Below, in pieces: positions 5,011 through 57,731 of a DNA stretch of 64,000 nt (positions are counted from its first letter, which is position 1; each line of letters opens with the position of its first letter). Below the pieces are notes generated by a model. The model saw nothing but the letters and a program-made list of their open reading frames with translations. It had not been told where the DNA came from and did no database searches. The DNA comes from Chiloscyllium plagiosum (lineage: Eukaryota), in assembly GCF_004010195.1 (NCBI RefSeq), contig NC_057753.1, forward strand, positions 14,297,937-14,361,936. Direction: 5' to 3'. The position numbers were made by a program, and so were the translations under genes.

Positions 5011-5355
5011 GGTTTACGTATGCATCTTTTCATTTAATGCAGCACTGTGAGACTGATCATGATCCAGAAGCATTTCCCGGGTTCCTCACCCTACAGCTCT
5101 TAGATTGTTAAACTAAAAACTAAAACGTTTTGGGCAGAGAAACCATGAAGCGATTTCTGGCAAGTGCAGCACTATCACTGAAGACATCCACAATGCAGAT
5201 AAGAATATCCTGGTGGCCACGTGTGAGACGTACCCAGTGCCACGGTAGGCAGGCACTCATATCCGATGTGTAGAAGCAGGTGAGGGTTACACTGTCTCCA
5301 ATCCGAGCAGTCATCTCATGCTCCAGCTGGTGACTGAGCGATTCAGACAGGCTCA
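5011..5355 (-). pseudogene. TCR alpha/delta-type V pseudogene (family B) with 23-RSS at 5011-5049
   Basis: SLSESLSHQLEHEMTARIGDSVTLTCFYTSDMSACLPWH...SDSAALARNRF, with frameshift and stops in FR3. RSS is CACAGTG-23-ACGTAAACC. Confidence 0.78.
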
Positions 5356-7112
5356 CTGAAGGACATGGATAATAAGGCAGTTTGTTTGGAAGAGCTTAAT
5401 GAAACTGACACTGTTCTTGTAATGCAGAGGAGAGACGGAGAAAATGAGCTTATTGTTTTAATGTTTTACCTTTATATTGTTTTGAAGTTGACTTTCGAAC
5501 TGATTGTCAGGATCAGTCGACCATATGAAGAGGTTACAGTTGAAAGTCAGTGGGTATTTAAGGGCATCTTCCACAATTGAACAAGACATGATGTTACTCT
5601 CAAACCTACCTCACTGCACATTCATAACAACCTTGCATCCTCTTGGTCATCGAGAAAGTATTTAGCTCTGCCTGAAAAATATTATAACATTTTGCATTGA
5701 ATGCCTCTTCAGAAAAGACATTGCAAATATTCAGCGCTCTAAACATTCAAAACGTTTCCTTCTCTCTAAATGTAATGGGTTCTCCCTTAATTTTAACGCC
5801 TGAAAATTAGTCTATATGATTCAAAACATCCACGTCTGAATTTTCTATTCTCCACAGGATATCTCTAAAGGCTTTCTCGACTTTTTATGTCTTTCTCAAC
5901 TTTGAACCGACAGCACAGACAGCAAATTATTCCAAAGTTTCATTTTCGTCTGATGAAGAAATGCCTTCTCAAAACTACCTTGAATGCGTACCTCCTTATA
6001 TTAAGATTATGTGTTCCACTCCCAGACTGTTCCAAAGGGGGAAACAGCATTTCTGCATTTACACTGTTCAATTTTCATTGCAACTCTCTCGACTACGTGG
6101 GACATGAAGGTGGGCCTCTTTGAAGAAAGGGAGTGAAACAACCACAGTGTCCCAAGATCCCTCCACGCAGCTTGCTCCTAGACTGAAGAGTTATTATTAT
6201 GAGAAATGCAAAGCATGTTTGATCTTATTCATTTATCATGATGCTTGCAAACACCGAACAACTTAACGTAATGTTCTGTTGTTTTCCTGGTGTTCTACTG
6301 TGATTGGTTCCGCACTCAGCGTCCAGGGATGGAGACCAATGACTTAGCTGTTAGATGCTGCGAACAAGTAGAGGAATTAAGCACGTTTTCTGGCATTAGG
6401 GAGACAGTTAAATTAACGTTGAGTATAATCGAGTTTTGATTCCATTTCCTGGATTAGGCTCATGACATTGTGAGGTCTATCCATTGTGTGTGAGTCTTTC
6501 TTAACCCACAAATTCACACTTCGTGCATACATCCTCTTGTCAACCTGTGGACAATATTTCCGGTGGACAAACATAGGAGAAGGTTTAAGCAATGTCCAAA
6601 ATGACAGGCAACTGAACATAGAAAACCAAAGCACAAAATAAACATTAAAGCATGAGAAACGAATTTATGACTGTTGGCTGGTTATGCGAGTTAAGGGAAA
6701 CAAATACTGCACACTGTGCTGGGCGTGCCTACTGTCGATTTGAATGATGCTGTGTACTGCCGCACTCCCTCTGATTGTATCCCTCTTTCATTTCACCTTG
6801 CTTGTGTGCAGTAACAGAGAACGACCAGGAATGGGTGCAGTTGTATCACGTGAAACTGAAGGGATTGAATAAGGGAAAGAGTCTGTGATTTTTTTTTAAT
6901 GCATCCACTTTCATCTTTTAGTCATTTTTTTCCCCCAAGTGATGCACAGCCGTTTCTGAACTGACATTGGACAGCTAAGTCAACGTTCTTAACCGTTTGT
7001 AAATGTTTCCAATAAGTCACCAAAAATGGCAGAACAATACAAAGCAGAAAGTGCACACACATTGAAACACAAGGGCAGAGATCAAAAAGCAAATATGTAC
7101 AACGAAAGATTC

Positions 7113-7113
<1 letters not shown>

Positions 7114-7184
<71 letters not shown>
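7114..7184. repeat. (CA)n microsatellite, ~35 units
   Basis: Uninterrupted AC repeat; not expanded at the paralogous sites (17130, 24545, 31235). Confidence 0.95.
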
Positions 7185-7188
<4 letters not shown>

Positions 7189-8260: not shown

Positions 8261-8392
8261 ATGAGTGAAAATAAACCAAGGTACATTTATGAGAATAAAT
8301 GTCTAGTTCTTTCGTTGGGAAATACAATGCGTTTCCAGGGAGCAGGATGCTTGTACCTATGACTTCTCTGATCACTTCATTCCACGTTGCAG

Positions 8393-8698
8393 AACTCGTG
8401 GCCAAAGAACTGATCACTTGTCTTCTCTGGCAGTGGAGGCTGTGAAGGCATGAAGGTGACAATAACTGCAAAACCACACCTTCCTCAGCTTCTTGCAGAA
8501 GATCTGTTGTCGCGACGGAGGTGCGCCACAACATCTCAGCATCGTCTAAGGCAGCGTGGCCTGAGCAGCGAGAATCGGGCCCCTCTTCACTGCAAGCAGA
8601 AACACAGCGTTCTTACTGTCAGCAAAATCAGAACAGATGCCGCCATGTACCTCTGAGCTGTGATGACTGTCAACTCAGTTGGCAGCCAGTCCGGAAAC
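8393..8698 (+). pseudogene. TCR-type V pseudogene in opposite orientation (family C)
   Basis: TTGCAG acceptor; FR3 KHSVLTVSKIRTDAAMYL*AV with TGA at the Cys104 position; degraded RSS; leader-like sequence at ~8290-8340. Confidence 0.62.
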
Positions 8699-9069
8699 AA
8701 TGGGCAGACAGGATATATATCGGTGGCCTCGCCATCTGAACATCAACAACTGTACAGCAGAGAAACAATCTCTGAGAGAAAGTGAATTTTGTGGATTTTC
8801 CACGTACAATGTGGAAATATTCCATGCTTCATAATCGGTGAGAATCTAGTCCATAATTCATTTTCTAAACAAAGTGTTCAGAGATTTTATAACACACTTT
8901 TAGAATTGGTGAGTCTCGAGTCTGAATCCATTTGAACCAAATATGGGGACACTGCCTTTGCACATCAGTAACCCCTCAGAATTTCAAGTGTGACTCAGAA
9001 GGATTGATTCGATTAAGGATTATGAGAATATTCAATGTTAATTAAGCAACTATCTTTATCTTTACGTCT

Positions 9070-9415
9070 TTAAAATCTGCTTTATTCTCGCCTCCTTCTG
9101 AATATCTTCTCACTATATACTCGGGTTGAGTTATTAAGCACTGTCAGTACCATTCCAATGAATAATAGTTCTCTGTAAAATCACAAATTAGAATCACTGC
9201 CTCTCCTTTTGTCAGAGCATCTGAGGAGAGCAACTGAGCGACTGAATATCCATGACTTAAATCTGAAATTGTAAACAGGCATTAATTACAAAATGTCACG
9301 CTGGCATCAAGTAAAATTATGATTTGAAAAAATGAATTTCAATTGAATTTCCTCCGCATTTATCTTTCAGAATTATTCCTCACACAAAAAAAAACAAATG
9401 CTGAGAAAACATATA
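9070..9415 (-). pseudogene. 3'-truncated TCR delta-type V (leader + FR1 to start of FR3; no RSS)
   Basis: Homologous to ~34085-34426 up to GGENKADF, then fused to flank. A second copy of the leader and promoter lies at ~9740-9930. Confidence 0.7.
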
Positions 9416-9942
9416 GTTTCTACCATTGGTCTTACTGATGTTATGAAGATGTGGGCGCACCTTTAAGAGAGTGAAGGACTTGGCAAGTACACCGAGGGTT
9501 GGAGAATGTACAAAGTAACATTTGTTCCAGAACAAACCGCACGACCTGTTGAAATTGGCCACTTAAGCCACCGGCGTGATATGAGCCACATGTAAAACTT
9601 GGGGATCCACAATACACGCTCTATCAAAATACAGTCTCTGAAATCCAATCTCCTGCATTTTTGAATTCAATTTCAATCTTTATGCAGCAGAATCTCTGAA
9701 ATCTTTTGTGTACCGTTGAGAAATGAACCGAAATTGTATTTCCTCTGCATTTACCTGTCCAAATTGATCCCCAAACAAAAAAAATGTTGAGAAACCATAT
9801 AGTTTTCATCCTCAGTATTACTGGTGTTATGAAGATGTGGGTGCACCTTTAGGAGGGTGAAGGAGTTGGCAAGTACACCGAGTGCTGGAGAATTTACAAA
9901 GTAACATTCGATTTAGAACAAACAGCACTCGTTGAGTTGCTA

Positions 9943-13557: not shown

Positions 13558-13596
13558 GGTTTTTGCACAGGTCTGCATGAGGCTTCTTTCACTGTG
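13558..13596 (-). other. 23-RSS of Ig-like V copy 1
   Basis: CACAGTG + 23-bp spacer AAAGAAGCCTCATGCAGACCTGT + GCAAAAACC. Confidence 0.95.
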
Positions 13597-14067
13597 TCAC
13601 TGCACAATAATATTTCGCGCTGTCTGACATTTTCAATGACTTGATATTTAAAACGAATATGTTGTTAGATACATCTTTGGAAGCAGTAACTTGTCCTGTA
13701 ACCCGTGGATTATAATCGCTGGAGCTATCACTGTAGTGCCGAACGAGCCACTGCAGACCATTTCCGGGGCGTTCACTGAACCAGAGCATATTGTAGCTAC
13801 CCAGATCGAACCCGCTGGTTGCACAGGTCAGTCTCAGAGATTGCCCAGGTATCCCTGACACTTCCTCTGGCTGAGTCAACGTCACCTCCGAATCGGCACC
13901 TAGTAATGTAAAATAGCATTCATTAAACGGGTGAGACTAGGAGTGTGTAATTGTCCTTAGAGACTAAATTAAAGGAGGAAATTATGTTTTTAAGTTTGAA
14001 GAAAGGGGAATTGGAAGTACGCACTGGCTAAAAAAGCAAAAAACAGAACTATAGACATCAGCGACAT
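13597..14067 (-). CDS. Intact Ig heavy-chain-like V gene segment (shark VH/TAILV-type), copy 1: leader exon 14025-14067, V exon 13597-13899
   Basis: Leader MSLMSIVLFFAFLA(S) with GTGCGT donor and CTAG acceptor. V exon SADSEVTLTQPEEVSGIPGQSLRLTCATSGFDLGSYNMLWFSERPGNGLQWLVRHYSDSSSDYNPRVTGQVTASKDVSNNIFVLNIKSLKMSDSAKYYCAV has Cys23, Trp41 and DxAxYYC, and no stops. TSGFDLGSY and TASKD..NNIF are typical shark VH motifs. Directly followed by a 23-RSS. Confidence 0.92.
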
Positions 14068-14250: not shown

Positions 14251-14902
14251 ATACAAGGCTCTTCCTATCGGTAGGGGGCTGTGCAGTAGCACCGTCTCAT
14301 TGTCAACGCTGTTTCAAGAATTATGCTCACTATTTCCATTCAGAAAAAAAAGATTCTGTCTCAACGCACACATAGGGTCAGTTTGGGAACTACTGATTGC
14401 TTCAGTGTGAGGGCAAGTAAACGAATACCTATGGGGGTTTCATAGGTGTTCCAAGCTGAGATGACAAAATGTGTCAATATGGGGATCACAAACATAATTA
14501 GTGAGGGGTTTGCAGCGGCACTTTTTATTCTAAATACAGAGCCAGTCTGTGTGGGAATTTTAGCGTGGGGAAGACAAATATTCAGAGTAGGAAGAGGTAT
14601 TCAGTGTCTGGATTGCACAGGCATTAGTGTGGGAATGACAGACTTGGTCAACGTGGGCGTTTTAGAGGGAGTCAGCGTGGAGATAAGATTTGATTTGAAT
14701 TGATTTATTGTCGTACATACTTCAGTGAACTGAAAAGCTTTGCGAGTAGTACAGACAGATGTTGTAAGCAAGGGCATATAGAGTGTATGGTGAAGAAAGT
14801 CGTGAACTGGGTAAGGCATACAGGTTACACCGCATATGACATGTGCGAGTCAAGATCAACATTAACAAGATCAGCATTATTTGAATTTAGACAGTCCATT
14901 CA

Positions 14903-15062
14903 TTTCTGGCAAACGCAGCCATTCGCAAAGCAGATGAGAACACCCTGGTGGCCAAGGAAGAGAGGTAGTCAGTGCAAAACCAGGTGAGGTTTACACTCTC
15001 TCCAATCCGAGCAGTCATCTCACCCTCCAGCTGGCGATGGAACGATTTAGACACGACCACTG
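14903..15062 (-). pseudogene. 5' half of family-B V, fused to a Rex1-type LINE 3' tail
   Basis: Homologous to 5153-5355 with internal deletions. FR3 and RSS lost at the junction gtccattcatttctggcaa. Confidence 0.65.
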
Positions 15063-15497
15063 AAGGGCATGTATACTAAGGCATTTTGTTTGGAAAAGGT
15101 AATAAAACTGAAACTCTCACGTAATGGAAAGGAGAGGCAGAGAAAATGACATTATTTTAATATCAATACGTTTATATTGTTTAGAAACTAACTGTCGAAT
15201 TGATTGTTAATATCATTCGAACACATGAAGGTCAGTGAGGCCTTAAGCCCATCTTCTGCCACTGAATACGATCCGATGTTAATCTCAACTCTGCATTACT
15301 GCACATTCTTAACAATCTTGCATCCTTTTGAGACTCCAGAAACTATATAGCTCTGCGTTCACAATATTTTTAAGATTCTGCATCGAATGACTCTTCAGAA
15401 AAGTCATTGGAAATACTCACAAACTTCTAAACATCAAAAGGTTTCCTTCTGTATGAATGCAATCGATTGGCCCTTACTTTTTAATTCTTAACATGAT

Positions 15498-15808: not shown

Positions 15809-18134
15809 TCTGAACATGATCTGAACTGTCTCAGCACATTCACGTCTGTCTCTTTCAATCTCTGCAGGACATAAGTAAAGGTTATCTAGATTTTATATAT
15901 CTATCTCAGCTTTGAACTGACAGCACAAGCAAATACTTCCACAGTTTCATTTTCGTCTGATGAAGAAATGTTTCCTCCGAACTATATTGAATTTGTGCCT
16001 CCTAATTCTGGGATTATGTGTTCCACTCCCAGATTCTCCCAAAGGGGGAAACAACAATTCCCAGTTTATAATGTTTAACATTCATTGCACCTCTCTCGAC
16101 CATGTGGAACTTGAAGGTGGGCCTCTTTAAAGAAAGGGAGTGATACAATCAGAGCGCCACAAGATCCCTCCACGCAGCTTGCTCCTGGACTCAAGAGTTA
16201 TGCTCGTGAGAAACACAAAGAATGTTTGATAACATTCACTTATTGATCAGATTCCAAACATTGAATAGCTTAATGTAATTTTCTGTTGCTTTCCGGTGTT
16301 CTATTATGATTGGTTCCACACTCCGAGTACCGCGATGAAGGCTAATGGCTGATATGTTCACTGCTGTGAACAAGTGAAGGAATTACACATGCTATCCAGC
16401 ATTGGGGAGACAGTTAAAGAGACGTTGAGGAGAATCCAACTTTGATGCCGTTTTCAGGATTAGGCTCATTTCATTGTAAGATCTATCCATTGCATGTGAA
16501 CCAATCTCGACCCACAAACTCACACTTCGCAAACACACCCTCTTGACAAACTGTGGGTAGTATTTCCGGTAAACTGACATAGGAGAAGGGATAAGAGACT
16601 TTCAGAATGACAGGCAGCTGAACAAAGAAAACCAGAGCACAAAATAAGCATGGAAACATCAACAAATGAATTTATGAACGTCAGCTTGTTATGCGGGTTG
16701 AGGGAAACAAATACTGCACACTGTCCCTGGGAATGCCTATTGTGGTGTTGAGTGGTACTGTGTACTGCCACACACTCCCTCAAATTAAAACCCATCTTTT
16801 TTTTCAACTTGCTCTTGAGCAGTAACGGAGACTGACCAGGAGAGGATTCACGTTGAAGAAGGGACTGAATCAGGGAAATAGACTGGGATTTTTTTTTTTT
16901 ATTCGCGCATTTACTGTCATCTTTGAACTTTTTCGCATAAAGCGACGGACAGCTGCTTCTAAATTGATATTAGACACCTGAAGCAATTCTCTAGATGAAC
17001 GTTTGCAATCTTTTGCAAATGTTTTGCAATAAGTCACCGAGAGGTGCTGATCAATATACAGCAGAAAGCTATACACACATTGAAAAACAAGGGCAGAAGC
17101 CAGAAATAAATATGTACTACTAAAGATTCAACGAACATGGAGGCGCAAACATATTAACTTTTTGCACTGGAATGCACATCTGGGAACCATCGGTGATCCA
17201 GGCCTTTGCCCTTTTGGTTAGTGTCTCGGTTAGGTAAAAGAACAGCACTTCCGGTTCTGTCCTGTTGTGCAACATAAAACGTTCTGACACTGTTTATTTC
17301 AGTGCGATATTCCTATCATTAGGACATCACGATAGAAGTGCGATCAATATTGATTATCCTCACTCTGAATGCCATCATCCCAGATGCGTTGCACTTTAGA
17401 TTCTCGGTTCAAAACATCTCGTCATCTTTCAAGTTTCCTATCTGAGACAACGTTATTGCTTGATTTGTAAACTATGCAGTTTGTCATTGATAGTTGGGTA
17501 ATAAGCAAATAAAAGATTAGTGTCACATTTCAAACCAATAACGACATGCATCGATAAGGCCGACAGCAATAGAGAAATGAGGACACCCTCAGCTGCAAGT
17601 TCCCTGCCAAGTCACTCACCATTCTGAATTCGAACTATATCGTCGTTCCTTCAGTGTCATTTGTTGAAAATCCAGCCATTCTCTCTCAAAACGTCCCATG
17701 TGTTTACATACACCGCAAGTACTAAAGCAGTTTCAAAAGATAACTAACCACAATAGACACTACACCAACCAGGGATGTCCATATCACCTCAGGGAACAAA
17801 TCACCCAGGAACTAAACGCATCATTATGTAATCAAGCTGAGACATTTTCTCAAAGTTAGCGTTGAGAATCTGAGGCACTCTCAAATGAAGGGTGGTCACG
17901 TCAGTGTGCAAATGTATTTTTCTCGTTTTTTAACTGCCACAGAGGCAAGCGCAGGGGTGAGAAGAGGATAATTGTTTCAAAGGGTAATTTGCCAAGAATC
18001 AGGATAAGTAAAAATATTCCAAGATGCATTCATGAGAATGAATGGCTCGCTTCCCCATTGGGCAGTACAATGTGTTTCCAGGGAGCAGGATGCTTGTACC
18101 CGCGACTTCTCCCATCATTTTGGCCACTTTGCAG

Positions 18135-18454
18135 AGCTCATGGCAGAAGAGCGGGTCACATAGACCTCCCTGGCACTGTTGACTGTGGAAGGTATCTCGG
18201 TGACAATGACTACAGAACTGCACCTGCCTCAGCTTCTTGCATACGGGCTGTTGTCAAGATGGACGGGAGCCACAACATCTGAGCATCGCCTATGGAAGCA
18301 TTGCCAGAGCAAGGAGGAATTGGACAACGCTTCACTACAAGCAAAAACATAACGTTTTTCCTGTCAGAGAAATTAGGAGAACAGATGCCACCACGTAACT
18401 CTGAGCTGTGATGATTGTCATGTTGCAACTCAGTTGGCAGCCAGTACAGACACT
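18135..18454 (+). pseudogene. Family-C V pseudogene
   Basis: Paralog with TGA at Cys104. Degenerate heptamer + 23-bp TTGCAACTCAGTTGGCAGCCAGT + ACAGACACT. Confidence 0.62.
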
Positions 18455-19544
18455 CCGGGCAGACAGCAGCTACATAGAAGGCCTCGTGCCTCAACATCAA
18501 CAACTGTACAGAGGAGAAACAATCACTGAGAGAAAGTGAATTTTGAGCAGGACCCATTTCAATGAAGAAATATTCCATGTTTCATAATCGGTGAGAATCT
18601 ACATCGTACCCATTTTTTAAACAATTTGTTCAGAGATTGTACAACATGCTTTTTAGCGTTGGTGAGTCTGGAACCCTGAATCTATTTGAACCAGATATAG
18701 GGACACTGCCTTTGCACAAGTGTAACACCTCAAAATTTCAATTGTAACTCAACTGAATTGATTCCACTCAGGATAGCGAGGATAATCAATGTTTATTACA
18801 TCTTTATCTTCATCCCTTCTTGACAGGAGTGCAGCACTGAAGTAAGCAACAACACACTTCCTGATCATGCATTACCACACCAGCACAGAAAATAATACTG
18901 GTACGCTCCCACTCACAATCTGAACAGGAGCAAATGACCGAAATCACTTAGACAACACTTTCGTTAAACCAAGAGCGCAATGGTCGGAGCAGTAATGAGA
19001 GCTATCAACCGAAAATACGGCTGAAAAGAACAGTCCTTTAACTGACATTATAAAAACCGCCTTGTGACTGTTCTTTATTCATTATGGGAACTCCAATTAA
19101 AATAACGTTGATCATTATACCGAGAGAAACTAAATGAAGGGCAGAACGAAGGTGAAAATCAGACGAAAAATAGTGAGAGGCCAACAGAGGAGCCCAAAAG
19201 GTAACACATGGGTGACGTTTATATGAAGCACTGCGTGGGATTAGTACTGAACATTTAACTGTTACATTGAATCTCCACATTTTCACTCATATGTCATCAC
19301 GCACATACACACACACCCACACACTCACATGCAAACACATTCATACGCACAGAGAGCCTGGTGCCATGCCGTGTCCTAAACTGATAAACAGAGTTCTATA
19401 TGATCAGATCGATGATGAAAGAATTCATTCAGCATTTCCTCAATGCACACGAATCACCAACTTCAGTGAAACCCATTTTAAATCCTGCCCATTTGTAAAC
19501 TGCCAGCGTATTTCTGGATGTTCCCATCTCACTCTTGTGTGACA

Positions 19545-19735: not shown

Positions 19736-19854
19736 GTTTGATGCAATGATCGTTTGGTTTCCTGTCAGTGTGTTGTTATGCTCTTGAAAGCACATAGTAA
19801 TTTCAAAGATTCTGCAAAGACTTCAAAATGACGATCAATCTGTGATACAAAGGA

Positions 19855-20343
19855 ACTTTTTGTGCAGGGGAGAGGCTGTGATTATCACAGGTTCCTGAAA
19901 GCGCATTAATGCATAACAGCGTCAGTCAGCTGTAGCCCGTTGATCGTCAAACTGGTGAATTTGTTTGAGGCCTGAAATTCTACAGAAAAGAATTCTTCTG
20001 CAAAATCTGGTTTATTCTCGTCTCCTTCAGAATATATCCTCAGCATATACTCCGTCTGGGTGCCTGAGTGCAGTCAATATCAGTATATTGAATAATAGCT
20101 CTCTGCAGTATCATAGCTGCAACTTAGGGTCTTTGCCTCTCCTTCTGTTCGAGCATCTGATGACAGTAATGAGCGACTGAATCTCCATGACTTGGGTCTG
20201 AAATTTAAAATAGATATTAATTGCCAAATGTCAAGCTGGCATCAACTAAAATTATGATTTTATAAAGGAATTTGAATTATACATCTTCCATATTTACCTG
20301 TCAGAATTGATCTTCACACAACCCAGATGCTGAGTAACCACAT
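19855..20343 (-). pseudogene. TCR delta-type V pseudogene: leader 20298-20343, V exon from 20197
   Basis: Paralog of 33933-34426. Leader MWLLSIWVV*RSILT. FR3 deletion and 4-bp heptamer deletion; nonamer ACAAAAAGT retained. Confidence 0.82.
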
Positions 20344-21307
20344 TGTTTCTATTCCTAGTATTACAGAGCTGTCGGATATTTGAGGGCACCCATTCTAAAC
20401 CTCCGCCCTCGATGTGCTGCTTCACTGACCTGGGATGATCCCACATCAATTTCATTTTTCAGTCGTGATGCTGACAGCGTGGGAGGTAGAGAGCCGTTTC
20501 TCAAAGAACTGATGATCCCCAGGCTCCGTTAGGTCTTTGTTATTGGGATAGGTCACTGAGCATCCTGAGACGAAGGCTTTCATCTATAAAAAACAATTTC
20601 CCAGATTCCTAGACCTCTTAATCTAGAGGTTATTTTTGTGATAAACCAGCTAATGCAGGCATTGAAATTAATCGCATTTGCCACCAATGTGATATAAGCC
20701 CCTCGCATAAATCTTGTAGACTCACAAAACCACGTGCTCACAAAATGAAATGCCTGAAATCCAATCTAATGCATTACTGAACTCAATCTCATCCTTTATC
20801 CAGCAGTGTCTCTGAAATCATTTTTATAAGATTCCCCTGTATTCTGGTCCTCCAAAGCTATTTCTCTGTATGCATGCTCAAGATCGTTAAGCTTTTCCTT
20901 TTTGGTTTATGTCTCACATCTTTAGTGAGCTGTGTCTCACCTTCTTCCACCAAATCTTCTGGGTGTTTCTTTTCTGTCTCACTGAACACAGAGGCCTTAT
21001 GGAACAGGACCAGTTTTACATGTGAATATCGTCACAGTTGCTGTCTTAGATACCAGCACACTCAGTATCTTCGTCTGCGTGTCTGTAAGTTATTTACTTC
21101 AGGGTCTGTTTTATTTTGTGTGTGTGTCTGTATGTGTGTTTGTGTGCAGGTGTTTTGCATGTTTCTGTGCCCAGACACTTGTGTTTGTGTACTTGTGTGT
21201 TTGATTTTGAGCGTATTTCTTTGTATGCATCTGCATTTGTATCTCTGGGTTTGTGTGTATTTTTGTATGTGTATGTGTGCTTTGTCCATGTGTTTTGCGT
21301 CGGTGCT

Positions 21308-21671
21308 ATAATTGTTGCTGTTTTCTCTGTAGTCAAAAACAAGCCATTATAGACCATTCCCGGAGCATTCAAAGTACCAGAATATATCGTACCTACTCAG
21401 ATCGGTCCCGCTGTTTGCACAGTTCAGTGTCCAAGACTGCCCAGGAATCCCTGATTCTGCCTCTGGCTGAGTCAACATCACCTCCGACTCAGCACCTAGC
21501 AAAGCAAAATGGTATTCATTAAACCGATGTGACTCGGAGTTGCGTACTTCTTCCTGGCGAGTGAATTAACAGAGGAAACGAGAAAGTGTTAAAATTTAGC
21601 AGGAAAGGAAAATGGAAGTACGCACTGGGTAAGAACACAAGAATCAGAACAATAGACATCAGCAACGCCAT
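21308..21671 (-). pseudogene. 3'-truncated Ig-like V pseudogene: leader 21626-21671, V exon 21495 to ~21308
   Basis: Leader MALLMSIVLILVFLP. Exon reads EVMLTQPEAESGIPGQSWTLNCANSGTDLSRYDIFWYFECSGNGL*WLVFDYRENSNNY, then fuses to the TG-rich tract. FR3, RSS and ~2 kb present in sister cassettes are deleted. Confidence 0.88.
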
Positions 21672-22506
21672 CTTCCTGAAGCTATGTTAAATGAAGTACT
21701 CTGTATTCCAGTCACACGTAGACAACTCAGTTTAGTGGATTGTTGGATTCTGATCCTCCCTCACAGGCTTTTATGAACAGGCAGAAGGAAGGGCGGGTTT
21801 GATGACACAATTACAGTATTGGTGGCCGAATGGCGATGTCTGATGTAAAAATACAAGGTTCTTCCCATCAGGAAGGGGGCTGTGCAGCAGAACCACCTCA
21901 TTGTTAATTTGTGTGAAGGATTGAGCTCACTGTTTGCCAAAAAGAAAAAGCTTTCCATCACAGCGCACACACAGGGTCAGCTTGGGCCCTACAGATTGCC
22001 TCAATATGAGGACAAATCAGCGAATATCTATGGGGATACAGAGGTGTTCTATACTGAGATGACAGAGTTTGGTAACATGGGAATCACGAAGGTGATCCGT
22101 TTGGAGTTTACAGCGGCATTCTTTATTTGATTGACAGAGCTGGTATGTGTGGGAATATTAGAATGGGACTGCGTGGGAACAAATGTTCAGAGCATAGAGA
22201 GGTATTCAGTGTTTGGATTGCGCAGACATTAGTGTGGGAATGACAGAGTTGTTCAACGTGGGGATTTTAGAGGGAGTCAGAGGGGAGATAAGATTTGATT
22301 TGATTTGATTTGAATTATTGTCATAGTACTCAAGTGAAGTGAAAAACATTGTTTGCGATCAGGACAGACAGACATTGTCGGCAAGAGCATATGGTGAAAA
22401 AGGTCTTGAACAGGGTAAGGCATACAGGTTTCATCGCATGTGACATGCGCTTGTCAAGATCAATACTAACAAGACAAGCATTATTTCAATTTAGAGAGTC
22501 CATTCA

Positions 22507-22697
22507 TTTCTGGCAAATGCAGCCATTCGCAAAGCAGATGAGAACACCTCGGTGGCCAAGGGAGAGAGGTACCCAGTGCCAGGATAGGCAGGCACTTATA
22601 TCCACTGTGTCGAAGCAGGTTTGGGTTACACTCTCTCCACTCCTAGCGGTCATTTCATCCTTTACCTAGCGACTAAGCGATTCACGCAGGCTCGCTG
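22507..22697 (-). pseudogene. 5' half of family-B V
   Basis: Same truncation junction as the 14903 copy. Confidence 0.68.
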
Positions 22698-40686: not shown

Positions 40687-40725
40687 GGTTTTTGTACAGG
40701 GACGGATTTGATCTATATCACGGTG
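40687..40725 (-). other. 23-RSS of Ig-like V copy 2
   Basis: CACCGTG + 23 bp + consensus nonamer ACAAAAACC. Confidence 0.93.
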
Positions 40726-41198
40726 CAACTGCACAATAATATATCGCGCTGTCTGATATTCTCAATGTCTTGACAGTCAAAGCGAAGATGTTGTTTGATG
40801 AATCTTTGGAAGCAGTAACTCGTCCTGCCACCTCTGGATTATACTTATTGTTGCTTTCACTGTAGTAATATACAAGCCATTGCAGACCGTTCCCGCGGCG
40901 TTCAACGTACCAGAACATACTGTAGCTACTCAGATCGAACCCGCTGGTTGCACAGGTCAGTGTCAGAGATTGCCCAGGGATACCTGACTCTGCCTGTTGC
41001 TGAGTCAACGTTACCACCGACTCGGCACCTAGTAAAGAAAAATGACATTCATTAAACCAGTGTGACTTGGCGTTATGTACTTTTCCCCGGCGAGTGAATG
41101 AACAGAGGAAACGAAAATACTTAAAAGTTTGGAGAGAAGGGAATGGGGTACGCACTGCATAAGAACACAAGAATCAGAACCACAGATATCAGTGACAT
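40726..41198 (-). CDS. Intact Ig heavy-chain-like V gene segment (VH/TAILV-type), copy 2: leader 41156-41198, V exon 40726-41028
   Basis: Leader MSLISVVLILVFLC(S), GT/AG intact. V exon AESVVTLTQQQAESGIPGQSLTLTCATSGFDLSSYSMFWYVERRGNGLQWLVYYYSESNNKYNPEVAGRVTASKDSSNNIFALTVKTLRISDSAIYYCAV is open. Confidence 0.92.
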
Positions 41199-44875: not shown

Positions 44876-45405
44876 GGTTTTTGCACAGGTATGGATTTGA
44901 TCTCTTTCATTGTGCCACTGCACAATAATATATCGCACTGTCTGATATTCTCAATGTCTTAATAGTCAAGGTGAAGATGTTGTTTGGTAAATCTTTGGAA
45001 GCAGTAACTCGTCCTCTAACCTAGGGATTATACTTGTTGTGGTTTTCACTGTAGTAATAAACAAGCCATTGTAGACAATTCCCGAAGTGTTCAATGTACC
45101 AGAACAGACCGTAACTACGCAGATAGAACCCGCTGGTTGCACAGGTCAGTCTCAGAGCTTGCCCAGGGATACCTGACTCTGCCTCTGGCTGTGTCAACAT
45201 CACCTCTGACTCGACACCCAGAAAATCAAAATGGCATTCATTAAAATGGCATTTATTGAACCAGTGTGACTCGGAGTTGTGTACTTTTCTCTGGCGAGTG
45301 AATTAACAGAGAAAACGAAAATGATTAAAATTTTGAAGAAAATGGGATTTGGAACTATGCACTGGCGAAGAAAGCAAGAAACAGAACCATAGATATCAGC
45401 GACAT
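44876..45405 (-). pseudogene. Ig-like V pseudogene, copy 3: leader 45363-45405, V exon 44915-45217, RSS 44876-44914
   Basis: Full-length 303-nt exon, but in-frame TAG at 45021-45023 (GAG in copies 2 and 4) and splice acceptor changed CTAG>CTGG. RSS is CACAATG-23-GCAAAAACC. Confidence 0.9.
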
Positions 45406-45583: not shown

Positions 45584-46242
45584 TATACAAGGTTCTTTCT
45601 ATCAGTCGGAGGCCTTGCATATCACCGCCTCATTGTCACCGCTGTGTAAAGAACTGAGCTCACTATTTGCCAAAAACAAAAACGATTCCATTTCAACGCA
45701 CACATCGGGTCTGTTTGGGGACTACAGATTTTCTTAGTATGAGGACAAATCAGCAAATATCTATAGAGATTACAGAGGTGTTCCAAGCTGAGATGACAGA
45801 GTATATCAACATGGGAATCACGAAGATGGTCAATTAGGAGTTCACAGCAGCACTCTTTATTTGAACTACAGAGCTGGTCTGTTTGGAAATTTTAGAATGG
45901 GACAGCTTGGGAATGACAAATATTCACAGTATAGAGAGATATTCAGAGTCTGGATTGCAGTCATTAGTGTGGGAATGTTAGAGTTGTTCAACGTGGGGAT
46001 TTTAGACAGAGTCAGCGTGGAGAAAAGATTTCATTTGAGTTGATTTATCCTCATACTTACCTAAGTGACGTGAAAACCTTTGCGAGCAGTAAAGACAGAC
46101 GTTGTAGGCAAGAGCATGCAGAGCGTATGGTGGAAAATTTCTTCAACAGAGGAAGGCATAGAGGTTACCCCGCATGTCACATGCGCTAGTCAACATCAAC
46201 ATTAACAAAATCAGCATTATTTGAATATAGAGACTCCATTCA

Positions 46243-46447
46243 CTTCTGGCAAATGCAGCACTGTCACTGAAGCCACCCCCAACGCAGATGAGAACACCGT
46301 GATGGCCAAGTGAGAGAGGTAGACAATGCCAGGATAAGCGGGCACTCATATCCGTGGTATAGAAACAGGTAAGGCTTTCAGTCTCGCCAGTGCTAGCGGT
46401 CATCTCACCCTCCAGCTGATGATGGAGCGATTCAAACAGGCTGGTTG
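46243..46447 (-). pseudogene. 5' half of family-B V
   Basis: ORF ESLHHQLEGEMTASTGETESLTCFYTTDMSARLSWHCL...GGGFSDSAAFAR, then runs into the LINE tail. Confidence 0.72.
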
Positions 46448-48288
46448 AAGGAAATGGATAATAAGGCATTTTGTTTGGAAGAGCTTAATAAAACTGACGC
46501 TATTCACGTAATAGAAAGGAGAGGCGGAGAGAATGAGCTTATTGTTTAAATATCAATAACTTTATATTGTTTAGAAGTTGACTGTAGAATTATTCGTTAT
46601 GATCATTCAAACGCATGAAGAGGTTACACCTGAAGGTCAGTGGGCACTTAAGTGCATCCTCTGCTACTGAATAATATCTGATTGTAACCTCAAATCTACA
46701 TCACTGCACGTTCCTTACAACCTTTCATCCTCTTGGTTATCGAAAAACTATTTAACTCTGCTTTCAAAATATTTTAAGATTCAGCATCGAATGCCTCTTC
46801 AGAAAAGTCACTAAAAATACTCACAACCCTCTGAACATAAAAAAAGTTTCCTTCTGTCTGAGTGTAATGGGTTCTCCCTTGCTCTTAACCTCTGAACAGG
46901 ATCTTATATATCTCGTCACATTCACGTCTGACTCTTCTATCCTTCAGAGGATATATACTAAAGGCTGTCTAGACTTTCTATGTCTATCTCAGCTTTGAAC
47001 TGACAGCACAGCCACAGTGACAAATAATTCCACCGTTTCATTTTCGTCTGATGAAGACATGTCTCCTCAAATCTATTTTAAATGAGTCTGGCCTTATTCT
47101 GCGTTTGTGTTCAACTCCCAGACTCACCCAAAGGGGGAAGCAACATTTCCGCATTTACAATGTTAATTTCTCATTTCACCTCTCTAGACCACGTTGGACT
47201 TGAAGGTGGGCCACTTTAATAAAAGGGAGGGATTCAATCAGAGCGCCCCAACATGCCTCCACGTAGCTGATGCCTAGACTGAAGAGTTATTCTCATGAGA
47301 AGCGCAAAGAATGTTTAATCACATTCATTTCTGGATCCCAATATTGAATTGCTTAATGCAATTTTCTGTTGATTTCCTGGTGTTCTATTGTGAATGATTC
47401 CATACTCAGAGTCGAGAGTTGGAGGCCAATGGCTGATCTGTTATTTGCTTTGAACAAGTAGAGGAACTAAGCATATTTTCCAGCTTTACGGAGACAGTTA
47501 AAGAGACAGCTAAATTGAGGGGAATGAAACTTTGATTACGTTTTCAGGGTTAGGCTCACTACATTGTGAGATCTACCCATTGCATGTGAGTCAATCTTAA
47601 CCCACAAACGCAGACTTCACAAACCCACCCTCTTGACAAAGTGTGGACAGCATTTCCGGTACACTTACATAGGAGAAGGGACGAGCGATATTCAGAATAA
47701 CAGGCAACTGAACAAAGAAAACCAAAGTACAAAATAAACATTAAAGCATCAAAAATGAATATTGTGAATGTCAGATGGTTATGCGAGTTGAGGAAAACAA
47801 ATACTGCACACTTTCCTTGTGTGTGCCTATTATCGATTTGAATGGTGCTGTGTACTGCCGCATTCCCTCTGATTGTATCCCTCTTTTGTTTCGCCTTTCT
47901 CTTGTGCAGTAATGGAGAATGAGCAGGAATGGGTGCAGTTGTATCACGTCAAACTGAAGGGACTGAATAAGAGAAAGAGGCTGGGTTTTTATTAGTACAT
48001 TCACTGCCATCTTTCAATCATTTTTTTTGTCCCATAGCGACAGACAGCCGCTTCTGAACTTAGATTAGACACCTGAGGCAACGCTCTAGATGAAGGTTTC
48101 CAATATTTTGTAATTTTTTCCATTAGGCCACCGAAAGGGGAGAACAATACACAGCAGAAAGTGTACGCAAGCATTGAAACACAATCGTAGAGACCAAACC
48201 ACCAATATGTACAACTAAAGATTCAATGTTTCTAGGGAGCGGGATGCTTGTATCGTGGACTTCTCCCATCATTTCTTCCATGTTGCAG

Positions 48289-48586
48289 AGTTTATGGCCA
48301 AAGAGCAGATCAATTGTCTTCTCTGGCAGTGGTGGCTGTGGAAGGCATCTCGGTGACAATGACTGCAGAACCACACTTTCATCAGCTTCTTGCATACAGG
48401 CCGTTGTCACGATGAAGGGGAGCCAAAAGATCTCAGCATCGCCTATGGCAAGGAGGAATCGGGCTACTCTTCACTGCAAGCAAAAACCCAGCCTTTTTAC
48501 TGTCAGAGAAATCAGAAGAACAGATGCCGCCATCTACCTCTGAGCTGTGTCATGTTGCAACTCAGTTGGCAGCCAATCCAAAAACT
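48289..48586 (+). pseudogene. Family-C V pseudogene (leader region deleted)
   Basis: KQKPSLFTVREIRRTDAAIYL*AV, then 23-bp spacer + CCAAAAACT. About 1 kb upstream is deleted at ~48225. Confidence 0.62.
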
Positions 48587-49942
48587 CCCGCTGAACAGGA
48601 GCGAAATAGATTGCCTCACATCTCAACACCAACAACTGTACAATGGAGAAACGATCACTGAGAGAAAGTGAATTTTGTGGAGCTTCCATGTTCAATGTGT
48701 AAATATTCCTTTCTTCATAATCGGTGAGAATCTAGACCGTATCCATTTTCTAAACAGCATGTTCAGTGATTTCTTAAGATTCTTTTAGAATTGGTGAATC
48801 TGGATCCTGAATCTATTTGAACCGGATGTAGGGACATTGACATTGCATATCAGTAACCCCGAAGAATTTCAAGTGTATTCCACCCGGATTGATTCCATTC
48901 AGGATAACGAGGATAATCAATGTTAATTACACCTCTACATTTATCCCCTCTTACCAGGAGTACAACACCGAAATAAGCAACAACCCACCTCCATTAGCAG
49001 AACAGAGCAGAAAACGAAACTAGTACACTCCCGCTCACACTTTGAACAAAAGCAAAGATCGGAAATCACTCAGACAACATCTTAGTAAAACCCAGAGAAC
49101 ACCAGTGGGATCAATAATGAGTGCTATCAAACGAAAATACAGCCGCAAAGAACACTCCTTCAATTCACATTTCAGGAACCGCCAAGCCATTGTTCTTTAT
49201 TCATTACGCCACCACCAATTAAAGTAATGTTGTCATTATACCGAGAGAACCTAAGTGAAGGACAGAATGAAGGTGAAACTCAGACGAACGATAGTGAGAG
49301 CCCAACCGAGGGGGCGAAACGATAATGGACGGGTGAGATTGAGATGAAATACTGCGTGGGAGTAGTAACTGTTACAATGAATCTCCACATATTCACGCAT
49401 ATGCCATCCCACGCATTCACACACCCACGCACTCAGATGCAAGCACATTCATACATAAACAGAGCCCAGTGCAATGCTGTGCTCTAAACAGATAAACACA
49501 GTTATATGCGATCAGATCGATGACAAAAGGATTAATTCAGCATTTCCTCAATGCACTCGAATCACCAACTTCAGTGAAACCCATTTAAACCCTGCCCATT
49601 TGTAAACTACTATCGTATTTCTGGACGCTCCCACCTCATTCCTTTGTGATTAAGGTGTGGATGTGAATGTCAGAGAAGGAGAGCACACTGTCTACAACTC
49701 ACAGATTGTTGAGGATGTCGATTAGAATGAATGCATTCACATCTGATTTTGTTCTGTGTCTGTGTGCGAGCTGGGACCCTGCGGTCTATTTACTGAGCAG
49801 CTCCAGAAAACCGTTGGTTGTCAGTTTGATGCGAGGTTTGTTTGGTTTCCTCTTAGTGTGATGTTAAGCTCCTGAAAGACATAGTAACTTCACAAGACTC
49901 TGCAAAGACCTCAAAATGACGATCAATCTGTGATACAAAGCC

Positions 49943-50416
49943 AATTTGTGTACATGGGACAGACTGTTATTGTGGATGTGAGGTTCCTGAAAGCGTAGAA
50001 ATACACGGAACCGTCAGTTAGCTGTAGTCGGTTGATCGCCAAACTGGTGAATTACTTTGAGGTCTGAAGTTCTGTGGAAATTCGATCTTCTGCAAAATCT
50101 GCTTCATTCTCGCCTCCTTCAGAAAATACTCAGCATACACTCAGTCTGTACTAGCATATTGAATAACAGATTTCTGTAGTATCACAACTACAACTTAGAG
50201 TTACTGCCCCGCCTTCTGTTCGAGCATCTGATGATTGTAACTGAGTGATTGAATCTCCATGACTCAGGTCTGAAATTAAAAATAGATATTCATTTTTAAA
50301 ATGTCAGGCTAGCATCAACTAAAATTATGATCTGATAAAGGAATTTGAATTGTATTTCTTCCATATTTTCCTGTCAGAATTGATCCTCACACAACCCAGA
50401 TGCTGAGTAGCTACAT
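49943..50416 (-). pseudogene. TCR delta-type V pseudogene
   Basis: Paralog of 33933-34426. Leader starts ATG TAG, deletion around Trp41, heptamer degraded to CACATCC. Confidence 0.82.
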
Positions 50417-50436
50417 GTTTTCTGTCCCTGGTATTG

Positions 50437-53543: not shown

Positions 53544-53582
53544 GGTTTTTGTACAGGTATGGATTTGATCTGTTTCACTGTG
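53544..53582 (-). other. Consensus 23-RSS of Ig-like V copy 4
   Basis: CACAGTG + 23 bp + ACAAAAACC, both elements perfect consensus. Confidence 0.96.
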
Positions 53583-54056
53583 CCCCGGCACAATAATATA
53601 TCGCGCTGTCTGATATTCTCAATGTCTTGATAGTCAAAGAGAAGGTGTTATTTGATAAATCTTTGGCAGCAGTAACTCGTCCTGTCACCTCTGGATTATA
53701 ATTCTTGCTGTTTTCACTGTAGTAATAAACAAGCCATTGCAGACCATTCCCAGGGCGTTCAACGTACCAGAACATACTGTAGCTACTCAGATCGAACCCG
53801 CTGGTTGCACAGGTCAGTCTCAAAGATTGCCCAGGGATCCCTGACCCTGACTCTGACTGAGTCAACATCACCTCCGACTCGGCACCTAGTGAAGGAAAAT
53901 GGCATTCATTAAACCAATGTGACCCGGATTATGTGATTTTCCCCGGCGAGTGAATTAACAGAGGAAACGAAAACGGTTAAAATTTTAAAGAGAAGGGAAT
54001 GGGAAGTACGTACTGGATAAGAACACAACAATCAAAACCATAGGTATGAGCGACAT
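53583..54056 (-). CDS. Intact Ig heavy-chain-like V gene segment (VH/TAILV-type), copy 4: leader 54014-54056, V exon 53583-53885
   Basis: Leader MSLIPMVLIVVFLS(S) with GTACGT donor and CTAG acceptor. V exon AESEVMLTQSESGSGIPGQSLRLTCATSGFDLSSYSMFWYVERPGNGLQWLVYYYSENSKNYNPEVTGRVTAAKDLSNNTFSLTIKTLRISDSAIYYCAG is open. Confidence 0.92.
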
Positions 54057-54149
54057 CGTCCTTCCTGAGTCTATGTTAAAGGAGTCTGTCCTCCAGTCAC
54101 GCATCGACAACGCAATTTGGCGGATTGTTGGTTTCTTATCCTCCCTCAC

Positions 54150-54669: not shown

Positions 54670-56345
54670 TTAATTTGATATGTTTCGATTTATTGTCATA
54701 TGTACCTATGTACAGTCAACAACGTTGTCGGTGAACAGTACAGGCAGACATTGTAAGCAAGGACATACAGAGCATATGGTGAAAAAAAGACTTGGACAGA
54801 GTAAGGCATTCAGGTAACAAGGCGTATAGCATACGCTCGTCAAGATCACCGTGAACAAGGATCAGCATTATTTGAATGTAGAAAGTCCGTTTACCTGTCT
54901 AATAGCGGCAGGGAAGAAGCTGTTCTTGAACCTGCTGGTGGCTGTGTTCAATCTTCTGTATCTTCAGTCTGACGGTTGAGGTTGCAGGAGACCATTACCG
55001 GGGTGGATGCAACTTTGATACTGTTGGCAGCCTTTCTGCGGCTACGAGATGTATACATGAATTCCATGGATAGGACGTTGGCTTCCATGCTGGTCTAGGT
55101 TGTGCACACGACCTTGTGATTGTAACGGGCGTCAGCAGAACAGTTACTGGGTCAGACTGTTATGCAAACCAGACGGTATGGCTTGCATGGTGCATCTGTA
55201 AAAGTTGGCGAGAGCCCTTATGGAGACGCCAGATTTCCTGAGCTGCCTGAGGAAGAAGAGGCTTTGTTGTGTTTTGCCAATTGTCGCATCTACATGAGAA
55301 GTCCAGGATAGATTTCCGTTTATTGTCACTACTCGGAAATTGACACTCTCAAGTCTCTCAACTTCCTTTCCATTAATGTAGATAGGGGCGTGTTCTCCTT
55401 CTTTCCTCCTGAAATCAATGGTCATTTCTTTAGTTTTGTGGATATTGAGACAAAGGCTGTTATCATTTCACCACGTCACCAAGCCCTCTTTCCCCTTTGT
55501 GAAGTCTGATACACAGTTGTTTGACATCAGTCCTACCCGTGGTGACGTCAGCAAATCTGTCGATGGTATTTGTTCAGGATTTGGCAACACATTCGTAGGT
55601 GCACAGGGATTACAGCAGGAGGCTGAAAATGCATTCATCGGGGGATAGGGGCTCCAATGTTAAGTATCACCTTAGAGGTGGTGCAGTTGTCTATCTTCTA
55701 CCTAATTGTGTTCTATGGACCGGCTAAGGATCCACTTGCAGTGTGTGGAGCTGAGACCTGAGACTCTGAGTTTTTAGATCGGTCTAGAGGGGATAATGGT
55801 GTTGAAGGCGGAGTGTAATCAAGAAGCAATATTTTGGATTAGTGGTGCTGGAAGAGCACAGCAGTTCAGGCAGCATCCGGGCTGCTCCTCGGATGCTGCC
55901 TGAACTGCTGTGCTCTTCCAGTACCACTAATCCAAAATCTGGTTTCCAGCATCTGCAGTCATTGTTTTTACCATCAAGAAGCAGTAGTCTGATGTTGGTG
56001 CCCTTGATGTCCAGGAATCTCAGGGATAGGCATAGGGCTGTGAAAATGGTGTTCGCTGTGGACCTGTTACATTGGTAGGTAAATTACGAGGAATAAAGGC
56101 AGGCTTGGAGACTGGAGTTGATTGAGGCCATGACCAGCCTCGCGAAGCACTTCATGAATGTGGAGGTTTGAGAGAGAAATGGTGGCAGTCATGAAGGCAC
56201 ATTGCATGCGCTTTCATAGGTACTGGGTTGATGGTCGTCTTCGTGAAGCAGCTGGGACTTTGGCTTATCGGAGCGAGCGTTTAAGATGGAAGTGAATACC
56301 CCTGCGTGCAAGTCCGCGCAGGGGCTAAGTGCATGGCTTGGGAAT
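54670..56345 (-). mobile_element. Rex1/Babar-like LINE, degenerate
   Basis: IDFRRK..HAPIYING.EVERLESV.F..VTI..NLSWTSHVDATI.K.QQ.LFFLRQLRK motif. Confidence 0.75.
55829..55972. mobile_element. Short fold-back PLE-derived insertion nested in the LINE; 11-bp TSD ATCAAGAAGCA
   Basis: Near-perfect ~48-bp inverted arms. TSD at 55818-55828 and 55973-55983; empty sites at ~42930 and ~56527. Confidence 0.75.
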
Positions 56346-56702
56346 CAGTCTGTTTGCTTTCTTTGTGTTGAGTCCCTGAATGACTGTTCTCATGTCTGCA
56401 CCATTGACAGAGGGAGCAGGTGCATCTTTGGCTATCGGAGCAGTTGCAGTGTGTGGAGCTGACACCTGAGACTCGGAATTTTGAGATCAGTCTGGAGGGG
56501 ATAATAGCATTGAAGGCGGAGCTGTAATCAAGAAGCAGTAGTCTGATATGTGGTCGCTTTTATGTATTTGTCTGTCAAAACTGCTTCAGCCTATCTATGT
56601 CTTTATTTATAACAGACTTGTTCCTAGTTCCACACAGTGAGGATGCACAATGTTTTGTACAATAACAGGGGCTCCTCTCTCACACACAGGCCGTAATAAA
56701 TC

Positions 56703-57050
56703 AATTTATGTTGAGGTTGTTGCATTAAATGCAGCACAGTGATCTTCGTTCTGATACAGATTTATTTCCTGGAATCCTCATCCAACAGTTGTGAGGCTGT
56801 GAAACTGACAGCTTTGTAGGTTTTGGCCAGAGATGATAGCAAACACTTTCTGTGAAATGCAGTACTGTCACTGAAGCCGTCCGTTCACCAGATCACAATA
56901 GACTGGGAACCCATGGACACAGGCTGCCATCCGGTACCAGGACAGACAGGTATTCTCCCTCGCTCCATCGGATGCGGTGAGTATGACACTCTCTCCACTC
57001 ATAATGCCACCTCAACCTTCAGCTGGCGAGCGAGAGAATCAGGCAGAATT
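56703..57050 (-). pseudogene. Family-B TCR-type V pseudogene with 23-RSS at 56703-56741
   Basis: Paralog of 5011-5355 (GESVILT...CLSWYR...GFSDSTAF). RSS is CACTGTG-23-ACATAAATT. Confidence 0.7.
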
Positions 57051-57449
57051 CTCGAAGGGCCCAAATAATAATGTATGGTGAAAGGATATGGTTAATTCAC
57101 AGGAGGTTTTGCAATTAGAACTCACACCCTCTAGACAACGCAGAGAAGAGACAAAGAAGAAAAAGGAGAGATGATTTAACAATTAACAAGTGATTTTATA
57201 AAATCCTTCAGATGACTGTTCTAAACGTGCAAACATACTCATGAGATAGAAGGATTGGCATTCGACCCTTTAGATCCTCTTCCACCGTTCAGTAAGTTCA
57301 CAACGGGTCTGAATTTAACCTCAACGCTTCCTGGACATCTCTGATGATGCTTTCATTCCCTTTATGATCAATATGTTTTCTAACGCTGCCTTTAACTCTG
57401 CATTTTGCATCCAATGCATTTTGAAAAATTTAACCCCAAAGTGTCAAGA

Positions 57450-57731
57450 ACTAATGTGTCTGGCCGGTTTTGATACCAGGATAACATATAGCTGTTCGAT
57501 GTATAACCATAGGTACAACTACAGTCACGGTTCCTCCTTTGCCCCGAAGATCTGAGAACAGTGATAGAATCCCTCCGTGCCAGACCTGAAATGAAGAACA
57601 AGTATCAATTACAAAATGGTTGACTGGCATCGGTTATACTTGTAATCTTTCAAAGGAACCTGGCATGTTATTCCTCCACATTTATCTGTTAGAATTGATC
57701 CCAACAAAACGCAGATACTGATTAGCCACAT
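57450..57731 (-). pseudogene. Divergent TCR delta-type V relic: leader 57686-57731, 5' half of V exon
   Basis: Leader MWLISICVLLGSILT (donor GT>AT), TTTCAG acceptor, then DSITVL...CTYGYTSNSYMLSWYQNRPD. The 3' half is missing. Confidence 0.65.

What the first reader, a model, noticed from the sequence alone, without database searches (positions are those of the whole stretch)
5011..57731. Only the Ig-like V survives in each cassette; TCR-type Vs appear to have died before amplification
Seen: all five family-C Vs share TGA at the Cys104 codon. Four family-B Vs share one truncation junction. The full-length Vdelta leaders share GTG-TGA, and the two truncated Vdelta share one breakpoint. In contrast, 3 of the 5 recent Ig-like Vs keep ORF, splice sites and near-consensus RSS. 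Inference: the cassette was multiplied while carrying dead TCR V passengers, so selection on copy number and integrity acted on the Ig-like V.
Basis: partly seen in the sequence, partly recalled or inferred. Interest (0 to 1): 0.7.

Follow-up and report, generated by a model that had tools for sequence, protein, structure and literature searches.

The report
Antibody-type V outlives dead cassette neighbours
In a shark T-cell receptor locus, an old block of variable-gene segments was copied about five times in tandem; three antibody-type segments stayed intact, which selection likely explains, while the T-cell-type neighbours are all broken, a pattern already described in cattle and involving a gene class already known in sharks.

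Summary
The lesions are real, but the reading needs correcting. The window is part of a shark TCR alpha/delta V array, about 200 kb from D-delta, J-delta and C-delta. A four-V unit was tandem-copied about five times; a sixth copy lies about 95 kb away. Flanks differ by 0.15-0.32 substitutions per site, so the copies are old.

Two TCR-type passengers evolve neutrally (omega 0.97, 0.92); one shares its stop with the outside copy. The four-copy 'truncation' is likely a duplication junction. The V-delta likely died separately after the first split.

Three of five Ig-like Vs are intact. Neutral simulation gives this in 12 of 20,000 runs without indels and none with. Constraint is modest: framework omega 0.62 against flanks, about 0.9 with free branch lengths, and no CDR selection shown. 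Not every unit keeps a live Ig-like V. Selection on copy number and expression were not shown.

The Vs are TAILV-type, and 'collateral' expansion of dead passengers is published for cattle. The scan has noted similar Ig-like V cassettes in other shark and ray genomes.

The parts
13558..14067 (-). I13: intact IgH-like (TAILV-type) V with leader, intron, V exon and 23-RSS
40687..41198 (-). I40: intact IgH-like V (heptamer CACCGTG); sister of I53, on a segment that carries no TCR-type passengers
53544..54056 (-). I53: intact IgH-like V with consensus 23-RSS
44876..45405 (-). I45: IgH-like V pseudogene (TAG at 45023-45021, acceptor AG>GG); likely died late (omega about 0 at conserved sites)
21307..21671 (-). 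I21: IgH-like V pseudogene (TAA, 3' half deleted); evolves neutrally, likely died early
28890..29295 (-). 5' flank of a deleted Ig-like V, closest to the I13 flank (K2P 0.139)
8300..8720 (+). C8: family-C TCR V pseudogene, TGA at Cys104 (8654)
18058..18466 (+). C18: family-C pseudogene, TGA at 18402
25480..25893 (+). C25: family-C pseudogene, TGA at 25821
32180..32576 (+). C32: family-C pseudogene, TGA at 32510
48228..48585 (+). C48: family-C pseudogene, TGA at 48541, 5' part deleted
9062..9430 (-). B9: truncated V-delta-family pseudogene (ATG lost, 3' deletion shared with B26)
26245..26570 (-). B26: truncated V-delta-family pseudogene, same breakpoint as B9
19823..20352 (-). B20: full-length V-delta-family pseudogene, leader TGA
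33900..34440 (-). B34: full-length V-delta-family pseudogene, leader TGA
49910..50430 (-). B50: full-length V-delta-family pseudogene, leader TGA
5011..5520 (-).
14902..15220 (-). D15: 5' half of the D-type V joined to a LINE tail (junction at 14902)
22506..22860 (-). D22: same junction
29297..29618 (-). D29: same junction
46242..46608 (-). D46: same junction
54700..56446 (-). LINE-like retroelement remnant at the right edge of the array; its 3' tail forms the junctions
56700..57731 (-). D57 and B57: older, diverged TCR V pseudogenes outside the repeated unit
4150..4560 (-). I4: old, degenerate Ig-like V; paralogue of a copy about 104 kb to the left

Best explanation
This is an old tandem array of a four-V block inside a shark TCR alpha/delta locus, in which three antibody-type V segments were likely kept intact by purifying selection and would be joined by inversion to the delta D-J-C about 200 kb away, while the broken TCR-type neighbours were likely copied along as passengers.

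Shown: the anatomy and lesions, the locus position, neutral evolution of families C and D, non-chance ORF survival, and constraint at conserved residues.

Inferred steps: (1) a non-homologous join between a D-type V exon and a LINE tail founded the repeat; (2) unequal crossing-over and deletions produced hybrid and partial units; (3) C and D were already dead, while the V-delta died separately in each early lineage, perhaps because it has at least 15 intact relatives nearby; (4) the Ig-like Vs follow ordinary birth-and-death, with 3 alive, 3 dead and 1 deleted among 7 copies.

Untested: expression, and selection for more copies.
For: Locus: a 12-D-23 segment about 190 kb right of the window, about 10 J, a C exon similar to shark TCR-delta models (36/95 and 39/103 identical), then over 60 J. 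The Ig-like Vs form one clade (99/98) with catshark and basking-shark Vs that gene models attach to a TCR C, apart from IgM VH. None of the 8 Ig-like Vs tested has a D segment or IgM-cluster homology downstream, whereas 3 of 3 IgM controls show a D. No indels in the 5 window Ig-like exons, against 0.04-0.09 indels per substitution in flanks and pseudogenes; substitution density is 0.30 against 0.40-0.41. Neutral simulation gives at least 3 of 5 intact in 12 of 20,000 runs without indels and 0 of 20,000 with. With flank-fixed rates, framework omega is 0.62 (p 4e-5); at 37 sites conserved in outside Ig-like Vs omega is 0.48 (p 8e-5), and 0.24 on intact terminal branches. Families C and D: omega 0.97 and 0.92.
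Against: With branch lengths estimated from the exons alone, cassette Ig-like V omega is 0.92 (p 0.67 against 1) and 1.02 on intact terminal branches. It is higher than in other Ig-like Vs of the locus (0.89 against 0.44, p 0.012), so constraint looks relaxed. All cassette copies have lost the conserved Arg43 and carry Glu for Gln44 (numbering recalled). The simulation ignores CpG effects and assumes an intact root. V-delta omega values do not differ significantly from 1 or from live genes, so its time of death is uncertain.
Confidence: 0.78

Rival explanations
1. One reading: all TCR-type passengers were dead before amplification, and positive selection for more Ig-like V copies drove the amplification.
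For: C and D are neutral. The Ig-like V is the only live gene in the unit today. The array supplies 3 of the 5 intact Ig-like Vs found in 454 kb. The closest pair, I40/I53, copied the Ig-like V without passengers. V-delta copies: 0 of 6 intact in cassettes against at least 15 of 30 outside.
Against: The V-delta has no lesion shared by all copies, and its leader stop is equally parsimonious as independent events. 4 of 7 Ig-like copies were lost again. No positive selection in CDRs (omega 1.14, p 0.55; 2.5, p 0.12). Tandem duplication with dead passengers also occurs beside TCR V-deltas in the same locus.
Confidence: 0.25
2. The Ig-like Vs were once functional but are now under relaxed selection and decaying; the three ORFs are late survivors.
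For: Free omega about 0.9-1.0; loss of Arg43 and Gln44; I45 shows that copies die late.
Against: Omega is 0.24 at conserved sites on intact branches; RSS, splice sites and start codons are all intact despite an expected 3-8 lesions per copy.
Confidence: 0.15
3. Shared lesions and open frames come from gene conversion, or the repeats are an assembly artefact.
For: Segment trees are discordant, showing recombination between units.
Against: Copies are 70-84% identical, and the synonymous rate in the exons is not below the flank rate (best scale 0.8-0.9, lnL gain under 1). The C stop is shared with a copy about 95 kb away. Contigs of two other runs match unique parts of 39.4-50.4 kb at about 98-100%.
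Confidence: 0.04

Closest known systems
TAILV / 'Ig-TCRd V' of elasmobranchs (named in PMC12227049: section 6, passages and Table S1 read; Deiss et al. 2019 not held, recalled)
   Same: IgH-like V in the TCR alpha/delta V array with a 23-RSS and no Ig D-J-C of its own. Table S1 lists 7 'Ig-TCRd V' rows before TCR-alpha C in stingray, TAILV plus IgWVTCRD in catshark, and 2 Ig-TCRV in epaulette shark. A catshark V falls in the same clade.
   Different: Here a subfamily with W-Y/F-x-E in framework 2 was multiplied inside a four-V unit and lies inverted to D-J-C. Expression is not shown, and no direct comparison with nurse-shark TAILV sequences was possible.
'Collateral' expansion by homology-unit replication in bovine TRA/TRD (Connelley et al. 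2014, PMC4289303; abstract and passages read)
   Same: Multi-V units were replicated, high-pseudogene subgroups sit beside low-pseudogene ones, and selection on the live gene was proposed as the driver.
   Different: There the driver is TRDV1, with transcript support. Here the survivor is an antibody-type V, the unit is about 7-9 kb, the copies are old, and there is no transcript support.
Birth-and-death evolution of V genes (Nei et al. 1997, cited in PMC4289303; not read)
   Same: Duplication followed by retention, pseudogenisation or deletion.
   Different: Nothing essential.

Membership tests
TAILV / Ig-TCR-delta V | V sequence of IgH type | tested here: met
   55-61% identity to IgM VH against 20-22% to V-delta; inside the IgH clade 97/98
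TAILV / Ig-TCR-delta V | Lies in the TCR alpha/delta locus | tested here: met
   Among TCR Vs, with D, J, C-delta-like exon and many J on the same contig 190-300 kb to the right
TAILV / Ig-TCR-delta V | No Ig D-J-C cluster of its own (recalled from Deiss 2019) | tested here: met
   No D in 8 of 8 flanks tested, D found in 3 of 3 IgM controls; no J within the V array
TAILV / Ig-TCR-delta V | 23-RSS compatible with the 12-RSS of D-delta | tested here: met
   RSS with 0-1 mismatch at 13596, 40725, 53582; 12-D-23 segment found
TAILV / Ig-TCR-delta V | Found rearranged to TCR-delta D-J-C in transcripts | tested here: inconclusive
   No RNA holder listed; 2-6% samples of two single-cell runs gave no usable reads
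TAILV / Ig-TCR-delta V | Orthology to the published nurse-shark TAILV sequences | not testable with these tools
   Papers not held; no protein named TAILV among the hits
Collateral expansion in homology units | Repeated multi-V units | tested here: met
Collateral expansion in homology units | Mostly dead subgroups beside a mostly live one | tested here: met
   B, C and D each 0 of 6 intact; Ig-like 3 of 7. Copies are not independent and numbers are small.
Collateral expansion in homology units | Surviving subgroup over-represented in the expressed repertoire | tested here: inconclusive
IgM minicluster VH | V followed within about 1 kb by D segments, then J and C | tested here: not met

The most novel reading that the evidence does not exclude
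A derived subfamily of antibody-type TCR-delta Vs with a rebuilt pairing face (Arg43 lost, Gln44 replaced by Glu in every copy) was favoured over the ordinary V-delta in the same unit and amplified by selection, so that it now supplies most of the antibody-like binding sites of this shark's gamma-delta T cells and pairs with gamma chains in its own way.
Probability: 0.15. Interest if true: 0.55.

Novelty: new member of a known kind. Interest (0 to 1): 0.3.

Why it matters
It gives sequence-level evidence, from a natural side-by-side control, that antibody-type Vs in a shark TCR locus are kept by selection and are not stray fossils. In one unit the Ig-like V survived in 3 copies while a conventional V-delta died in all 6. 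It names three germline Vs whose use in the delta repertoire can be tested directly. Both ingredients, Ig-like Vs in shark TCR-delta and dead passengers in replicated V units, are already published, so the gain is incremental.

Tried and rejected
Expression: no RNA holder was listed. Laying two single-cell RNA runs (about 2% and 6% read) on 39.4-50.4 kb gave 31 and 0 reads, all partial and 95% alike or less, mostly on the LINE tail. This is no test either way. I13 and I53 were not in the laid stretch. Whether the I45 stop is fixed could not be read, because 116 variant rows were not shown.

Positive selection in CDRs: not significant; 15 codons give little power.

NG86 ratios of 0.5-0.75 were set aside because they ignore transition bias.

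Fossil D behind the Ig-like Vs: none found.

A charge-complementary partner for Glu44: the only gamma-like V family seen (2 identical copies; identification as gamma is my inference) has Gln there, and one TCR V nearby also has Glu. Dropped; no complex was predicted.

Dating in years: the passages read gave no usable rate, so no age is stated.

Orthologues of the cassette Vs in other sharks: none among the hits, which is weak evidence.

Literature searches listed no paper on this array. Deiss 2019 and Ott 2021, which may describe the orthologous region, were not held.
Full report
Names used. Numbers give the kb position in the window; 'm' marks positions left of the window.

Context. The window is G000:C44:14297937-14361936. 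I fetched 200 kb to the left and 300 kb to the right. A 12-D-23 segment lies at window coordinate about 254,270, followed by about 10 J segments, a C exon near 271 kb and over 60 more J, all on the + strand. The C exon matches shark gene models that carry a TCR-type C (36/95 and 39/103 identical). The window is therefore in the V array of a shark TCR alpha/delta locus. A minimal pattern found 28 Vs with an open exon 2 and an RSS in 454 kb (a lower bound). Most lie on the minus strand, including the window's Ig-like Vs, and would rearrange by inversion (established V(D)J logic).

Observation. Two framing words are wrong. The copies are not recent: self-BLAST identities are 70-84% and flank K2P distances are 0.14-0.33, with I40/I53 at 0.15-0.18. 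The Ig-like V does not survive in each unit. Left to right the array reads D5-C8-B9-I13, D15-C18-B20-I21 (dead), D22-C25-B26 (Ig-like V deleted), D29-C32-B34, I40, I45 (dead), D46-C48-B50-I53.

An outgroup. A sixth unit lies at about -98.4 to -87.5 kb. Its C copy has the same TGA. More distant C-like copies to the right have TGT/TGC or TGG there but are broken in other ways, some sharing a gap with the window copies relative to the one intact relative at +225 kb. Its D copy runs on past the junction, like D5. Its B copy has an intact leader and private frameshifts, and its Ig-like V has a 1-bp frameshift and a CAG heptamer.

How the array grew (inferred). In D15, D22, D29 and D46 the V exon is joined to the 3' tail of the LINE that follows I53, I40 and the outside Ig-like V, at a 2-bp AT microhomology. 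Self-similarity starts at about 5153 and ends in that LINE. The junction is best read as the breakpoint of the founding tandem duplication, or of a deletion just after it. Segment trees disagree: the C/B part groups units 1 and 3 (98.7/98), while the D side groups unit 3 with units 2, 4 and 5 (96.8/92). The orphan 5' flank at 28.9 kb is closest to I13. Unit 3 is thus likely a crossover hybrid that then lost its Ig-like V. I40 sits on a segment copied with the long LINE and without passengers.

Were the passengers dead first? C: omega 0.97 (p 0.86 against 1). D: 0.92 (p 0.71). Five intact V-delta controls: 0.52 (p 4e-5). D has no intact relative among the 6 genome matches. C and D were passengers. 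B is different: omega 0.71 (p 0.053), no exon-2 lesion shared by all six, all five, or the three full-length copies, and the outside copy groups with B9/B26 (86/90). The leader stop then maps to the B20/B34/B50 ancestor, and the start loss and deletion to the B9/B26 ancestor. B likely died separately after the first split and before the later ones. Branch-class omegas are too noisy to prove this.

Was the Ig-like V selected? For: no indels in the five window exons, against 0.04-0.09 per substitution elsewhere. Substitution density is 0.30 against 0.40-0.41 in flanks, while the pseudogene exons match spacer DNA (0.47-0.49 against 0.485). On the flank tree, neutral evolution leaves at least 3 of 5 intact in 12 of 20,000 runs without indels and 0 of 20,000 with; 3-8 lesions per copy are expected, against 0, 0, 0, 2 and at least 2 seen. 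With flank-fixed branch lengths, framework omega is 0.62 (p 4e-5), CDR 1.14 (not significant) and intact terminal branches 0.68 (p 0.01). At 37 sites conserved in three outside Ig-like Vs, omega is 0.24 on intact branches against 0.93 at the other 58. Against: with free branch lengths omega is 0.92 and indistinguishable from 1, and it is higher than in outside Ig-like Vs (0.89 against 0.44, p 0.012). So the reading frame, RSS and core residues are protected and the rest drifts near neutrally. The synonymous rate is not significantly below the flank rate, which argues against conversion.

Copy number. Not shown. The array provides 3 of the 5 intact Ig-like Vs found, and B is 0 of 6 intact in units against at least 15 of 30 outside (the pattern misses some intact genes). 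But 4 of 7 Ig-like copies were lost again, and C-type dead passengers recur about 10 times further right among live V-deltas, so passenger duplication is routine here.

What the Ig-like V is. It has IgH-type sequence. It is in one clade (99/98) with the locus's other Ig-like Vs and with catshark and basking-shark Vs, apart from IgM VH. Those database entries are automatic gene models, not transcripts. It has no D or IgM-cluster flank. This fits TAILV as named in PMC12227049 (section 6, passages and Table S1 read). The defining papers were not held. All six cassette copies read W-Y/F-x-E where relatives read W-Y/V-R-Q/H; the meaning is unknown. Expression could not be tested.

Prior art. PMC4289303 (abstract and passages) proposes the same 'collateral' expansion for cattle TRA/TRD. 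PMC6795676 and PMC5931798 (passages) describe IgH V use by shark TCR-delta. PMC11372145 (one reference passage) and 10.1101/2022.10.17.512540 (passages) added nothing used here. The scan's notes had nothing at this place and similar cases in other genomes (unchecked).

Verdict. A real and well-supported case of a known gene class evolving by a known process. Interest 0.3.

Noticed in passing
G000:C44 about 14,199,500-14,210,400 (window coordinates -98.4 to -87.5 kb): A sixth copy of the D-C-B-I unit in which all four Vs are broken, including the Ig-like V.
   Followed up: yes
window 13558-14067, 40687-41198, 53544-54056 and the dead copies: All cassette Ig-like Vs lost the conserved framework-2 Arg and carry Glu for the V-V interface Gln.
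   Followed up: partly
L002:6730-7011 (-): An Ig-like V with open frame but Ser for Cys104; a database protein from a congeneric-looking shark (P0007) has the same Ser, so the odd residue is shared across species.
   Followed up: no
L005:8480-8761 (+) and L006:8025-8306 (+): Two further intact Ig-like Vs with consensus 23-RSS, in the same orientation as D-J-C delta.
   Followed up: partly
window coordinates about +70 to +225 kb (L021-L037): About 10 C-like Vs on the + strand interleaved with V-delta-family genes; only the most D-proximal one looked intact. An older array of dead passengers beside live TCR Vs.
   Followed up: partly
L078, L079 (G000:C9, 3.2-3.8 Mb) and L088 (C34): V domains running straight into a G-x-G-T/S J-like motif with no RSS, that is germline-joined VJ-type genes, in what looks like a large array on C9.
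   Followed up: no
L070 (G000:C44:12,316,000-12,319,000): A TCR-type V followed by two 23-RSS-like sites 60 bp apart.
   Followed up: no
L087 (G000:C4:102,612,000-102,621,999): Two V exons identical in protein and RSS, 1.6 kb apart; a very recent duplication or an assembly duplicate.
   Followed up: no
window 44261-48093: Contigs of two other runs differ from the window by about 1-2% around I45 and D46 but by under 0.2% in several pieces near I40.
   Followed up: no
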